Positions 15,045 through 18,019 of a stretch of DNA of 64,000 bases are shown one piece after another. Source of the stretch: an uncultured Chloroflexia bacterium. GTDB taxonomy: Bacteria > Chloroflexota > Limnocylindria > QHBO01. Numbering within the stretch: the first letter of the stretch is position 1; every line of letters begins with the position of its first letter. Under the pieces are notes generated by a model. It saw nothing but the letters and a program-made list of their open reading frames with translations. It made no database searches and was not told the DNA's origin. The stretch is taken from positions 170,226 to 234,225 of the forward strand of contig CAWJIR010000009.1 in assembly GCA_963843015.1 (NCBI GenBank). The letters are read 5' to 3'. The translations under genes and the position numbers were made by a program.

Positions 15045-15232
15045 ATTCATCGCTCTCGGGGCGGGGTGAAATTCCCCACCGGCGGTCGGTCCGCGTAGCG
15101 GACCAGCCCGCGAACCCCTCGAGGCCGGCGGCACGGAGAAGGCCGCCGGAACCACCTCGCGGGGCCGACCTGACCCCGGCATCAGCCGGGCAGACAGGGC
15201 CGACGGTCACAGTCCGGATGGGAGAGGGCGAG
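15045..15232 (+). promoter_or_regulatory. FMN riboswitch (RFN element)
   Basis: CUCUCGGGGCGGGGUGAAAUUCCCCACCGGCGGU...AGCCCGCGAACCCC...GGCCGGCGGCACGGAGAAGGCCGCCGG...GACGGUCACAGUCCGGAUGGGAGAGGGCGAG matches the conserved RFN core (GGGUGAAAUUCCC-ACCGGCGGU; AGCCCGCGA; GACAGUGAAAGUCUGGAUGGGAGAAGG in B. subtilis ribD). It lies ~125 nt upstream of an ABC transporter operon. Confidence 0.8.
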
Positions 15233-15356
15233 CACGAGGCGTTCCTCCGACGACCCGCGAGACCGATCGGCGCTGCGCGCCCGCCGGATCCGCGGCGAGA
15301 CGGACCGATGGCCTCGCCGCTCCCCCGCCCCGCTGGCGCTGGCGCATGGGAGACCA

Positions 15357-16193
15357 ATGGCGAGCGAACCCCGATCCGGTCCGGCGATCACGATCGAGGA
15401 CCTGGCCGTCACGTTTTCCGGCCCTGCCGGGCCGCTCACCGCCCTGGACGGGTTGAGCGGGGAGGTGGCCGGCGGGGAGCTGCTGGCGGTCATCGGTCCG
15501 AACGGATCCGGCAAGAGCACCCTCCTGCGGGCGCTGGCCGGGCTGCTGCCGCCGACCGCGGGGCGCATCGGTCTGGCGCCCGATGGATCACCGCCGCGCG
15601 CCGGTGATGGCCGGGTCGGGCTCGTCTTCCAGCAGCCGCGCCTCCTCGGCTGGCGATCGACGCTGGACAACGTCACCCTCCCGCTCGAGCTGGAGGGCGT
15701 GCCGGCCGCCGAGCGCCGAGCGGCGGGGGAGCGGGCTCTGGCCCAGGTCGGCCTGACCGATGTCGCCGGCCTTCGGCCCCGCGAGCTGTCGGGCGGGATG
15801 CAGCAGCGGGTCGCGCTGGCCCGGTCGCTGGTCACCGACCCGCCGATCCTGCTCCTCGACGAGCCGTTCAGCGCCCTCGACGCCCTGACGCGCGACGCGT
15901 TCGATGCCCAGCTCGAGGCGCTGTGGCTGGCCGACCGGCGGACGGTGGTCCTGGTCACGCACTCGGTCAGCGAGGCCGTCCGGCTGGCCGACCGGATCTG
16001 GGTCCTGACTCCGCGCCCGGGCCGGGTCGCGGCCGAGATCCCGGTTCCGCTGCCGCGCCCTCGGCCGGCCAGTGCGTCGGCGGATCCGTGCGGCAGCCGC
16101 CGTCGAGGCCCAGGTTCGCGCCGCGCTGGCATCGGTCCATGCGCCCGAGCTCGAGGGCTGGGCCGAGGCGCCGCCGGAGGTCGCGGCATGAGC
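15357..16193 (+). CDS. ABC transporter ATP-binding protein (NitT/TauT family; RibXY-type riboflavin importer ATPase candidate), frameshifted near 16070
   Basis: Walker A GPNGSGKST, Q-loop, signature LSGGMQQRVALARSL, Walker B ILLLDEPFSALD, H-loop VTHS. Its stop overlaps the next ATG as ATGA. Confidence 0.8.
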
Positions 16194-16946
16194 GCCGTTC
16201 TGCGCCGGCTCGGCGCTGGTCGCTGCTGAGCGCCGCCGGGTTCCTGCGTCGTCTGGAGGCTCGTGGTGGTCATCGGCGACTACCCCGAGTACATCCTCCC
16301 CGCGCCGGAGGTCGTGGCCGCCCGTGCGGTGGAGGCCATCCAGAACGGGACGCTCCAGCCGCACCTGGCGGCGACGCTGGAGGAGAGCGTCATCGGCTTC
16401 GTCGTCGGGGCCGCGGTGGCGGTCGCGGTCGGGCATCCTGTTGGCCAAGAGCCTGACCGCCGAGCGGGTCCTGTCGCCGTACCTCGTCGCCGCCCAGGCG
16501 GTGCCCATCCTCGCCCTCGCGCCCGCTGATCGACATCTGGTTCGGCGGCGGGCTGACCGCGCGGGTCGTGATCTGCGCCCTGATCGTGTTCTTCCCGATC
16601 GCGATCGCGACCATGGTCGGCATCCGCGGCACCGACCCGCTGCTGGTCGAGATGGCGCGCGCCAACGGCGCCCGCGGTCCGCAGATCACCCGGCTGCTCG
16701 AGATTCCGACGGCCATGCCCGTCCTGTTCGGCGGGCTGCGGGTGGGCGTGACCCTGGCGGTCATCGGTGCGGTCGTGGCCGAGTGGGCCGGCGCCAGCGT
16801 CGGGCCTGGGCGTCCTGATCAACATTGCCGACCAGGGCCTGTTCGACACCCCGCTCATGTTCGTGGCCCTCGCCACCCTGGCCCTGCTGGGCCTGACCTT
16901 CTATGCCGTCGTGCTCCTCGCCGAGCGCGTGATGGTTCCCCGTTGA
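16188..16946 (+). CDS. ABC transporter permease (NitT/TauT family), frameshifted at least three times
   Basis: MSAVLRRLGAG..WSLLSAAGFLVVWRLVVVIGDYPEYILPAPEVV...VIGFVVGAAVAVAVG...SPYLVAAQAVPILALAP...LIDIWFGGGLTARVVICALIVFFPIAIATMVGIRGTDPLLVEMARANGA...GGLRVGVTLAVIGAVVAEWAGAS.. reconstructed across frames. Confidence 0.7.
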
Positions 16947-16963
16947 GCCCCGAAAGGAAACCG

Positions 16964-18019
16964 ATGCGTCCTCGCGCCCTGTCCCTGGCCGTCGCTCTCA
17001 CCCTGGCCGTTGCGGCCTGCACCCCGAGCGCGTCGCCGAGCCCGAGCGCCAGCGCGGAGCCGTGCGCCAAGCGGCCTCCGGCAGCCCGCCGTGGCGAGCT
17101 GCGCCAGGTGCGCCTCCTGCTCGGCTTCCGACCCGACGTCCAGTTCGCGCCGTTCTACCTGGCCCAGCAGGACGGCTATTTCGAGCGCGCTGGGCTGGAG
17201 GTCACCATCGAGCATGCCGATGCCGGCGAGCTCATCCGCCTGGTGGCCGACGGCCAGGCCGAGTTCGGGGTGGCGGATGCGACCGACGTGATGATCGCCC
17301 GCACACGGCGGCATCCCGATCAAGCTACATCTCGACCCTCTATCAGTATCTTCCCGGTTGCCGTGATCGGCCCGGTCGGAGCGGTGCCGTCGGATCCGGC
17401 AGACCTGGCCGGGATGACCATCGGGACGCCCGGCCGGTTCGGCTCCTCATGGCACGCTCTGCTGGCGCTGCTGGATGCCGGCGGGCTGACGCCGGATGAC
17501 GTGACGATCCGCGAGTACCCGCAGTTCAACCAGGTCGAGGGGCTGCTCGAACGGCGACGTCGACCTCATCACGGGCTTCCGCAACAACGAACCGCTGCGC
17601 CTGGCGGCCGAGGGCATGGACACGGAGCTCCTGACGGTCGACGAGGTCGCGCCGCTGCCGGGGCCGGGAGTGATCGCCGGAGACGAGCTGCTGGACACCG
17701 ACGTCGAGCTCGCGTCCTCCTTCGCCGCCGCCGTGGTGCTCGCCCAGCAGGCGATCGAGCGCAGAGCCCGAGGTCGGCCTTCAGGCGGCCGTCGAGGCGG
17801 TCCCCACGCATCGCCGAGGACGAGGCGACGGCCATGGCCGTGCTCGAGGCGACGATCCCGATCTGGCTCGGCGCCGGAGCCCGGAATCGACGGCGAGTGA
17901 TCAACGAAGCCGTCTGGCAGAGCGGGCACGCAGATCATGCTCGATCTCGGGTTCATCGACGGGTCGGTCCCGATGGAGGACATGATCGAGCCGGTCCACG
18001 ACCGCGATCCGACCAGCTA
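16964..18019 (+). CDS. ABC transporter substrate-binding lipoprotein (NMT1/THI5-like, ThiY/RibY-type), frameshifted
   Basis: MRPRALSLAVALTLAVAACTPSASPS has a lipobox (VAAC). Then ...RQVRLLLGFRPDVQFAPFYLAQQDGYFERAGLEVTIEHADAGELIRLVADGQAEFGVADATDVMIA... and ...GMTIGTPGRFGSSWHALLALLDAGGLTPDDVTIREYPQFNQVEGLL...VDLITGFRNNEPLRLAAEGMDTELLTVDEVA... in a second frame. Confidence 0.7.

What the first reader, a model, noticed from the sequence alone, without database searches (positions are those of the whole stretch)
15045..18019. FMN riboswitch controlling a three-gene NitT/TauT-type ABC importer with an NMT1/THI5-like lipoprotein: a RibXY-type riboflavin uptake system
An RFN element with all conserved cores lies 125 nt upstream of the ATPase, permease and substrate-binding lipoprotein genes. 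The stop and start codons overlap (ATGA), so this reads as one operon. FMN-riboswitch-regulated ABC transporters of this family, predicted as RibXY in Chloroflexi and some Actinobacteria, are bioinformatically predicted but poorly characterised. Here a distinct substrate-binding protein gene (a RibZ/Y-like lipoprotein) completes the system. A convergent TauE/SafE exporter overlaps the stop of the substrate-binding protein gene.
Basis: partly seen in the sequence, partly recalled or inferred. Interest (0 to 1): 0.55.

Follow-up and report, generated by a model that had tools for sequence, protein, structure and literature searches.

The report
Riboswitch-controlled riboflavin ABC importer operon
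This is an ordinary example of an already characterised bacterial vitamin B2 (riboflavin) uptake system, RibXY plus its ATPase, switched off by an FMN-sensing RNA; in this window its three genes are broken by what look like single-base sequencing errors.

Summary
An FMN riboswitch aptamer lies at 15048-15233 (+). It matches RF00050 end to end (62.1 bits, E 1.2e-11 for the whole window) but falls 4 bits short of Rfam's gathering score because of long insertions in two variable hairpins. The same element lies upstream of the same operon in 72 of 72 related Chloroflexota (Limnocylindria) loci. Relatives with short hairpins score 68-82 bits, and 17 of 45 base pairs show compensatory changes. Downstream lie an ABC ATPase, a NitT/TauT-type permease and an NMT1/THI5-like lipoprotein, always in that order. 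This is the RibXY riboflavin importer plus its ATPase (ribZ), which has published complementation and flavin-binding data. No terminator was found; a C-rich segment can pair with either the 3' strand of P1 or the ribosome-binding site, which suggests translational control. Caveat: in this window the three genes are interrupted by 14 single-base insertions. Removing them restores clean ORFs that keep all 97 family-invariant residues of the binding protein, and the same insertion excess covers at least 13 kb, so these are most likely assembly errors. One small curiosity: the extended fourth hairpin carries an invariant GGAG loop complementary to a conserved motif just after P1. New member of a known kind; low interest.

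The parts
15048..15233 (+). FMN riboswitch aptamer (RFN element), six helices. P1 = 15050-15057 paired with 15224-15231.
   Evidence: RF00050 full-length match at 62.1 bits, E 1.2e-11. Homologous element in 72/72 related loci. RNAalifold recovers P1-P6 with 17/45 compensatory pairs. No window-specific indel falls inside it.
15115..15164 (+). Extended fourth hairpin (P4) of the aptamer, 50 nt, with the apical loop ACGGAGAA (GGAG at 15135-15138). This lineage-specific insertion costs Rfam bits.
   Evidence: cmscan shows a 40-nt insertion where the model has 10. 39/72 relatives have the long form and 37/39 of those carry GGAG in the loop, against 0/33 of the short form.
15239..15252 (+). Conserved motif GCGUUCCUCCGACG just 3' of P1. 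Its CUCCG (15245-15249) is complementary to the P4 loop CGGAG and resembles an anti-SD. Role undecided.
   Evidence: Present at a fixed offset in 34/39 long-P4 leaders and at that offset in none of 33 short-P4 leaders. The pseudoknot and a rival local hairpin are both more than 93% paired but show no covariation.
15310..15329 (+). Switch segment GGCCUCGCCGCUCCCCCGCC. It can pair either with the 3' strand of P1 (anti-sequestor) or with the SD and first codons (sequestor).
   Evidence: Constrained folds. Duplex energies are -25.0 and -23.1 kcal/mol, each matched by about 5% of shuffles. Inferred, not shown.
15348..15359 (+). Shine-Dalgarno GGGAGA (15348-15353) and the ATG (15357-15359) of the ATPase gene.
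   Evidence: Read directly from the sequence. P(SD unpaired) is 0.29 with P1 enforced and 0.74 with P1 open.
15357..16191 (+). ABC transporter ATP-binding subunit (ribZ-type), 277 aa after correction. One single-base insertion at 16089.
   Evidence: Pfam ABC_tran 108 bits. NCBIfam's nearest models are the taurine/sulfonate/nitrate ATPases. 76.5% identical over the full length to the intact L002 ortholog. Insertion mapped.
16188..16946 (+). NitT/TauT-family permease (ribX-type), 250 aa after correction. Six single-base insertions at 16215, 16224, 16247, 16431, 16522 and 16802. Its start overlaps the ATPase stop (ATGA).
   Evidence: Pfam BPD_transp_1 77 bits. 84.4% identical without gaps to the L002 ortholog. 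Insertions mapped.
16964..18020 (+). NMT1/THI5-like substrate-binding lipoprotein (ribY-type), 349 aa after correction. Seven single-base insertions at 17305, 17324, 17348, 17549, 17758, 17809 and 17930.
   Evidence: Pfam PF09084 132 bits. Homologs are up to 83% identical, and some are named 'putative riboflavin transport system substrate-binding protein' by JGI. Keeps 97/97 family-invariant columns. A model of the closest homolog has the ThiY-like fold.

Best explanation
The region is an FMN-riboswitch-controlled ribZ-ribX-ribY operon of a Limnocylindria-class Chloroflexota bacterium. It encodes an ABC importer for riboflavin. The lipid-anchored RibY protein captures the flavin outside the cell, the RibX permease passes it through the membrane, and the RibZ ATPase powers transport. 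When cellular FMN is high it binds the leader RNA and closes helix P1. That frees a C-rich segment (15310-15329) to pair with the ribosome-binding site and first codons of ribZ, so translation is shut off. When FMN is low, the same segment pairs with the 3' strand of P1 and the ribosome-binding site is open.

Shown here: the aptamer, the three protein families, their order, and the conservation of the linkage. Inferred: the substrate (from the riboswitch class and from published work on Chloroflexus RibXY) and the translational mechanism (from folding only). The 14 frame-breaking single-base insertions in this window are taken to be sequence errors.
For: Aptamer:
- Full-length RF00050 match, E 1.2e-11, and the only RNA-family hit in the window.
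- A homologous element sits at the same place in 72/72 loci that have enough upstream sequence.
- 8 of 11 loci tested reach gathering (68-82 bits).
- The six-helix consensus has 17/45 pairs with compensatory changes.

Operon:
- Pfam and NCBIfam family assignments.
- The order RFN-ATPase-permease-binding protein holds in 72/72 loci.
- Intact ORFs with a 4-nt overlap in a clean assembly.

Substrate:
- RibXY was defined by exactly this riboswitch linkage (PMC3766115).
- It complemented a riboflavin auxotroph, and RibY is reported to bind flavins (PMC4418817).
- JGI names close homologs as riboflavin transport binding proteins.

Control:
- No terminator-like site.
- The window's SD accessibility switches from 0.29 to 0.74.
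- Across 68 loci the SD is mostly paired. Accessibility rises when P1 is opened in 17 loci and falls in 2 (Wilcoxon p 1.6e-4).

Frameshifts as errors:
- 16 of the 17 window-specific single-base indels are insertions, and they are not in homopolymers.
- The same excess extends over 13 kb.
- Deleting the 14 that fall inside the genes restores three clean ORFs.
- These ORFs keep 97/97 invariant columns, including 67/67 downstream of the first frameshift.
Against: - The RF00050 score is below Rfam's curated gathering threshold (62.1 against 66.2).
- No direct sequence comparison with the characterised Chloroflexus RibY (Caur_0816/0817) was possible.
- The solved structures nearest to the binding protein bind thiamin or its pyrimidine precursor, at about 20% identity, so specificity rests on the riboswitch context.
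- The thermodynamic test of SD switching is weak across relatives (mean 0.28 against 0.35), and the duplex energies are only about the 5% tail of shuffles. Rho-dependent or other control is not excluded.
- As the sequence stands, none of the three genes could be translated into a full protein.
Confidence: 0.85

Rival explanations
1. The operon is a genuine pseudogene cluster: the 14 single-base insertions are real and no functional transporter is made in this organism.
For: As given, each gene is frame-broken, and the permease would stop after 13 codons. The insertions are not in homopolymers, so they are not the classic nanopore error type.
Against: The neighbouring genes (HutH, DedA, TauE, FolD) are broken in the same way, and about 48 single-base insertions occur over 13 kb. 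That would imply a dead genome. 16 of the 17 single-base events are insertions, there are no in-frame stops after correction, and all 97 invariant residues are kept, 67/67 of them beyond the first frameshift. Neutral decay would also bring deletions, nonsense codons and loss of conserved residues (inference from general knowledge of pseudogene decay).
Confidence: 0.04
2. The transporter is FMN-regulated but imports something other than riboflavin, for example FMN/FAD, lumichrome, a riboflavin precursor, or an unrelated NitT/TauT-type substrate such as a thiamin pyrimidine.
For: The nearest solved structures are ThiY (FAMP), a thiamin-binding protein and THI5. Homologs of this transporter family sit behind TPP, T-box and ykkC elements in other phyla, so specificity is plastic (PMC4418817). 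Only 3 of the JGI-named close homologs carry the riboflavin name; the rest carry the generic NitT/TauT name.
Against: The FMN riboswitch linkage is universal in this clade (72/72). That linkage is the criterion by which RibXY orthologs were defined, and the tested member transported riboflavin (PMC4418817, PMC3766115). Identity to the thiamin-type proteins is only about 20%.
Confidence: 0.1
3. Control is transcriptional (Rho-dependent or a non-canonical terminator), or involves the P4-loop/CCUCCG elements, rather than the simple SD-sequestration switch proposed.
For: In most relatives the SD is predicted to be paired in both states, so the simple two-state model explains little of the variance. 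The 123-nt leader contains further conserved motifs whose role is unexplained.
Against: No intrinsic-terminator-like site was found, and there is no U-run in this 71% G+C leader. The window shows explicit three-way complementarity between the 3' strand of P1, the switch segment and the SD/start.
Confidence: 0.3
4. The RFN-like sequence is a chance or decayed resemblance and does not sense FMN.
For: The score is below the Rfam gathering threshold.
Against: E is 1.2e-11. All conserved cores are intact. The element is conserved at the same position in 72 loci, with compensatory base-pair changes. The sub-threshold score tracks the length of the hairpin insertions across the clade.
Confidence: 0.01

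Closest known systems
RibXY / RibXYZ riboflavin ABC transporter of Chloroflexi (prototype Chloroflexus aurantiacus Caur_0816-0817; Sun 2013 PMC3766115; Rodionova 2014 pmid 25345570; Gutierrez-Preciado 2015 PMC4418817)
   Same: It has an FMN riboswitch in the leader, a COG0600-type NitT/TauT permease co-transcribed with a COG0715-type NMT1/THI5-like binding protein, and a Chloroflexota host. An adjacent ATPase gene (ribZ) has already been reported for a few Chloroflexi.
   Different: Here the ATPase gene comes first (Z-X-Y), and it is present in all 72 Limnocylindria-type loci, whereas the prototype operon has two genes and no ATPase. The aptamer of this subclade has a long P4 with a GGAG loop and scores below Rfam's gathering threshold. 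Identity to the prototype RibY could not be measured here.
ThiXYZ thiamin-pyrimidine (HMP/FAMP) ABC transporter; ThiY structure 3ix1
   Same: Same transporter family and the same fold for the binding protein. 3ix1 is the top structural match (E 1.8e-23, TM 0.71-0.81). Same three-component make-up.
   Different: ThiXYZ is controlled by a TPP riboswitch and binds a pyrimidine. Here the leader is an FMN riboswitch and the binding protein shares only about 19% identity.
Rfam RF00050, FMN riboswitch (RFN element)
   Same: The whole model is matched, all conserved junction sequences are present, the architecture is six helices P1-P6, and it lies 5' of a flavin-related operon.
   Different: It scores 62.1 bits against a gathering score of 66.2. 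P4 has a 40-nt insertion where the model has 10, and P5 has 22 nt where the model has 9. The expression platform appears to be translational, with no terminator.
Other FMN-riboswitch-controlled riboflavin importers (ECF-RibU, RibM/PnuX, RibN, ImpX, RfuABCD)
   Same: The same regulatory logic: uptake is repressed when FMN is plentiful (PMC4418817).
   Different: These belong to unrelated transporter families. Only RfuABCD is also a binding-protein-dependent ABC system, and its binding protein belongs to a different family (COG1744).

Membership tests
RF00050 FMN riboswitch | Score at or above Rfam's curated gathering threshold (66.2 bits) | tested here: not met
   62.1 bits. This is an operational cut-off, not a structural feature. 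The five closest relatives score 50.4-62.9, and short-P4 relatives at the same locus score 68-82.
RF00050 FMN riboswitch | Six-helix architecture (P1 closing a junction with hairpins P2-P6), supported by covariation | tested here: met
   RNAalifold on 72 sequences recovers P1-P6. 17 of 45 pairs keep pairing through changes on both sides, and the window fits all helices.
RF00050 FMN riboswitch | Conserved junction/core sequences of the RFN element | tested here: met
   The cmscan alignment matches the strongly conserved consensus positions (GGGUGAAAUUCCC, ACCGGCGGU, AGCCCGCGA, CCGACGG, AGUCCGGAUGGGAGA). 77 columns are invariant across the 72 homologs.
RF00050 FMN riboswitch | FMN binding by the RNA | not testable with these tools
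   Needs in-line probing or ITC.
RibXY(Z) riboflavin ABC transporter | Binding protein of the NMT1/THI5 (COG0715) family co-transcribed with a NitT/TauT (COG0600) permease | tested here: met
   Pfam PF09084 at 132 bits and BPD_transp_1 at 77 bits. The genes are adjacent on the same strand with a 17-nt gap. Same order in 72/72 loci.
RibXY(Z) riboflavin ABC transporter | FMN riboswitch upstream of the operon, the criterion used to call orthologs in PMC4418817 | tested here: met
   The aptamer ends 123 nt before the first gene. Conserved in 72/72 loci.
RibXY(Z) riboflavin ABC transporter | More than 38% identity over at least 80% of the length to C. aurantiacus RibY (threshold of PMC4418817) | not testable with these tools
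   The prototype sequence could not be obtained. Indirect evidence: JGI names P0022, P0029 and P0030 (74-77% identical) 'putative riboflavin transport system substrate-binding protein'.
RibXY(Z) riboflavin ABC transporter | Dedicated ATPase (ribZ) adjacent; optional, reported in a few Chloroflexi | tested here: met
   An ABC_tran gene at 15357-16191 overlaps the permease start and is present in 72/72 loci.
RibXY(Z) riboflavin ABC transporter | Flavin binding by RibY and riboflavin uptake | not testable with these tools
   Known only for the Chloroflexus prototype (PMC4418817).
ThiXYZ HMP/FAMP transporter | TPP riboswitch control and a ThiY-like pyrimidine-binding protein | tested here: not met
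   No TPP riboswitch (RF00059) anywhere in the window at E <= 0.01. ThiY (3ix1) shares the fold but only 19% identity.

The most novel reading that the evidence does not exclude
The long fourth hairpin in this subclade may be a functional add-on to the FMN riboswitch. Its invariant apical CGGAG loop (15134-15138) would pair with the conserved CCUCCG motif 12-17 nt after P1 (15244-15249). This would form a loop-to-tail pseudoknot, or act as an SD mimic competing for an anti-SD-like sequence, and so couple aptamer folding to the expression platform in a way not described for RFN elements. A far less likely reading that is not strictly excluded: the 14 single-base insertions are real.
Probability: 0.15. 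Interest if true: 0.4.

Novelty: new member of a known kind. Interest (0 to 1): 0.15.

Why it matters
It matters little for discovery. The system, its regulator and its function were predicted in 2013 and tested by 2015, and annotation pipelines already name close homologs.

Three practical points follow:
1. A whole clade of genuine FMN riboswitches in soil and freshwater Limnocylindria sits just under Rfam's gathering score because of hairpin insertions, so default annotation misses them.
2. In this uncultured class the ATPase-first ribZXY operon behind an FMN riboswitch was present in every locus examined. This suggests that riboflavin scavenging is a standard trait of the group.
3. This window carries roughly one spurious extra base per 190-270 nt, so any ORF-based finding in it needs frame-aware checking.

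Tried and rejected
- The default Rfam gathering scan of the window found nothing. This was resolved with the E-value mode.
- I tried to read Rodionova et al. 2014 (pmid 25345570) for the RibY binding data and the ribZ description. The paper is not held, so those points are cited second-hand from PMC4418817.
- I tried to reach the Chloroflexus RibY sequence for a direct identity test, without success. The single genome scan kept 80 loci, all Limnocylindria-type. The AFDB libraries were unavailable. The PDB has no RibY, by sequence or by fold.
- The promoter and terminator scan of 14800-15500 found nothing, so the transcription start is unknown.
- My first automatic start-codon assignment in relatives took the longest ORFs and was unreliable. 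I replaced it with starts anchored on Walker A plus an SD.
- The across-clade SD-accessibility test gave only a small effect.
- The loop-tail pseudoknot and the rival local hairpin were tested for covariation. Both are almost invariant, so neither is supported or refuted. The apparent compensatory change in L056/L067 disappears when the pairs are counted column by column.
- I considered nanopore homopolymer error as the cause of the frameshifts and rejected it: the extra bases are not in homopolymers, and they are insertions rather than deletions.
- A literature search for this system in Limnocylindria found nothing relevant.
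Full report
OBSERVATION

The default Rfam scan of the whole window returns nothing at gathering thresholds. A permissive scan finds RF00050 (FMN riboswitch) at 15048-15233 on the + strand. It matches model positions 1-138 of 138 at 62.1 bits, against a gathering score of 66.2. E is 1e-13 for the 551-nt region and 1.2e-11 for the whole window, where it is the only family with E <= 0.01. 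The bits are lost in two variable hairpins: 40 nt where the model has 10, and 22 nt where it has 9. All strongly conserved core sequences are present.

GENES AND THEIR FRAMES

Pfam gives ABC_tran (108 bits), BPD_transp_1 (77 bits) and NMT1/THI5 PF09084 (132 bits). NCBIfam's nearest models are the taurine, sulfonate and nitrate ABC components, all far below their cut-offs, so there is no curated equivalog.

The genes are not intact ORFs in the sequence as given. A three-frame translation shows each one hopping between frames. I aligned the DNA with 12 close relatives and found 19 window-specific indel events in 15000-18100. Seventeen are single bases, and 16 of those are insertions that are not in homopolymers. 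Deleting the 14 that lie inside the genes restores three ORFs of 277, 250 and 349 aa, each with one terminal stop. The 14 positions are 16089, 16215, 16224, 16247, 16431, 16522, 16802, 17305, 17324, 17348, 17549, 17758, 17809 and 17930.

In these corrected frames the junctions are as follows:
- The ATPase stop and the permease start overlap as ATGA at 16188-16191.
- The permease ends at 16946.
- The binding-protein gene runs from 16964 to 18020.
- Its stop overlaps by two bases the stop of a convergent TauE gene. Pfam confirms TauE, as well as DedA/VTT upstream and FolD beyond.

ARE THE FRAMESHIFTS REAL?

Several observations say no.
- The same excess of single-base insertions extends over the whole 13 kb that can be aligned with the two closest relatives: about 48 single-base insertions against 13-21 single-base deletions.
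- Neighbouring genes are broken too.
- The corrected binding protein keeps all 97 columns that are invariant in an alignment of 31 homologs built without it, including 67 of 67 downstream of its first frameshift.
- The corrected proteins are 77-84% identical over their full length to intact orthologs from a clean short-read assembly.

Gene decay would bring deletions, stop codons and loss of conserved residues; none is seen. I therefore treat the insertions as assembly errors (probability about 0.95). As the sequence stands, though, the permease would end after 13 codons.

ORGANISM AND RELATIVES

The binding protein's closest relatives, up to 83% identical, come from 'Candidatus Limnocylindria' and other Chloroflexota metagenome bins. 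JGI names three of them 'putative riboflavin transport system substrate-binding protein'. A scan of one genome per species kept 80 loci, nearly all labelled Limnocylindria, Chloroflexota or Chloroflexia. The best, L022, is 86.7% identical in DNA and syntenic from DedA to FolD. So the window is from an unsampled species of that class, not from an actinobacterium.

IS THE RIBOSWITCH GENUINE?

- A profile built from the window and eight Rfam-confirmed relatives finds the element in 72 of the 80 loci, always about 1.75-1.9 kb upstream of the binding-protein gene. The 8 loci without it all lack that much upstream sequence.
- In all 72 the order is aptamer, ATPase, permease, binding protein.
- Of 11 loci scanned at gathering, 8 pass (68-82 bits). 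The 3 that fail are the window's closest relatives. Five members of that subclade score 50.4-62.9 bits with full-length matches.
- The shortfall therefore tracks the long hairpin insertions and is a clade trait. No window-specific indel lies in the aptamer.
- RNAalifold on the 72 sequences recovers the six-helix RFN fold on its own. 17 of 45 pairs keep pairing through changes on both sides, for example P1 C-G/U-A at columns 7/218 and P4 C-G/G-C at columns 89/143.

WHAT IS KNOWN

RibXY was described in 2013 as a new riboflavin transporter of Chloroflexi. It is homologous to the ThiXYZ thiamin-precursor system, always preceded by an FMN riboswitch, and lacks an ATPase gene (PMC3766115). In 2015 the Chloroflexus aurantiacus ribXY operon (Caur_0816-0817) was shown to rescue an E. 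coli riboflavin auxotroph. FMN-linked orthologs were listed in Chloroflexi, Actinobacteria and Thermobaculum. The same paper reports that Rodionova et al. had shown flavin binding by RibY and had found an adjacent ATPase gene, ribZ, in a few Chloroflexi (PMC4418817; the Rodionova paper itself is not held).

The lipoprotein here is thus RibY, the permease is RibX and the ATPase is RibZ.

A confident model of the closest intact homolog (pLDDT 87.5) matches ThiY (3ix1), a thiamin-binding protein (4nmy) and THI5 best, at 18-20% identity. No RibY structure exists in the PDB. This fits the published statement of homology to ThiXYZ, but it leaves substrate specificity resting on the riboswitch context.

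MECHANISM

No terminator-like or sigma-70-like site is found between 14800 and 15500, and the leader has no U-run.

With P1 enforced, as a proxy for the FMN-bound state, the minimum-energy fold pairs the segment at 15310-15329 (GGCCUCGCCGCUCCCCCGCC) with the SD GGGAG (15348-15352) and the first codons. With P1 open, the same segment pairs with the 3' strand of P1. The probability that the SD is unpaired goes from 0.29 to 0.74. The two duplexes are -25.0 and -23.1 kcal/mol, and each is matched by about 5% of shuffled segments.

Across 68 relatives with an assignable start, the SD is mostly paired in both states (mean 0.28 against 0.35). Accessibility rises in 17 loci and falls in 2 (p 1.6e-4). 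SD sequestration is therefore the best-supported model, but it is inferred. I give it about 0.6.

A SIDE OBSERVATION

Thirty-nine of the 72 aptamers, including the window's, have a long fourth hairpin. In 37 of these the apical loop contains an invariant GGAG above a covarying stem; none of the 33 short forms has it. The same long-form leaders carry a conserved GCGUUC(C)UCCGACG motif 12-13 nt after P1 (34 of 39). It is absent at that offset in the short forms. Its CUCCG is complementary to the loop's CGGAG.

A loop-to-tail pseudoknot is 93.5% paired and a rival local hairpin is 97% paired. Both are nearly invariant and show no covariation, so neither is supported or refuted.

VERDICT

The thing is an ordinary new member of a known, experimentally tested system.

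Noticed in passing
window 10950-24075 (measured); probably the whole window: The window carries an excess of single-base insertions relative to its closest relatives: about 48 single-base insertions against 13-21 single-base deletions over 13 kb. They are not in homopolymers. They break HutH (12501-13484, -), DedA (14328-15098, +), TauE, FolD and the operon genes. Any ORF-based reading of this window needs frame-aware checking.
   Followed up: partly
window 15115-15164 and 15239-15252; alignments A2 and A4: The long fourth hairpin of the aptamer has an invariant GGAG in its apical loop (37 of 39 long forms, 0 of 33 short forms). It co-occurs with a conserved GCGUUC(C)UCCGACG motif just after P1, whose CUCCG is complementary to the loop. 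This could be a pseudoknot or an SD mimic. No covariation is available to test it.
   Followed up: partly
window 14328-15098 (+): The raw DedA/VTT ORF runs into the riboswitch aptamer (to 15098) only because of a frameshift near 14935. In the frame that matches the family's C-terminus it ends at 14998, which leaves 50 nt before the aptamer and no recognisable promoter.
   Followed up: partly
window 18017-19639 (-): A convergent TauE/SafE gene and then FolD follow the operon. FolD follows the binding-protein gene in 67 of 72 related loci, whereas TauE is detected in only 11. No functional link to riboflavin uptake is apparent.
   Followed up: partly
loci L028, L029, L037, L046, L051, L078, L079: These loci carry the Limnocylindria-type operon, but their records are titled Dormiibacterota, Pleomorphomonadaceae, Steroidobacteraceae, Acidobacteriota, Methylomirabilota, Binatia and Angelobacter. 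The binding-protein gene is 60-70% identical to the window's at protein level, and L029 is 78% identical in DNA across the region. This more likely reflects mis-binned contigs than horizontal transfer.
   Followed up: no
Rfam RF00050 against loci L001, L002, L005, L017, L022 and the window: A whole subclade of evidently genuine FMN riboswitches scores 50-63 bits, below the family's gathering score of 66.2. Default Rfam-based annotation will miss them.
   Followed up: yes
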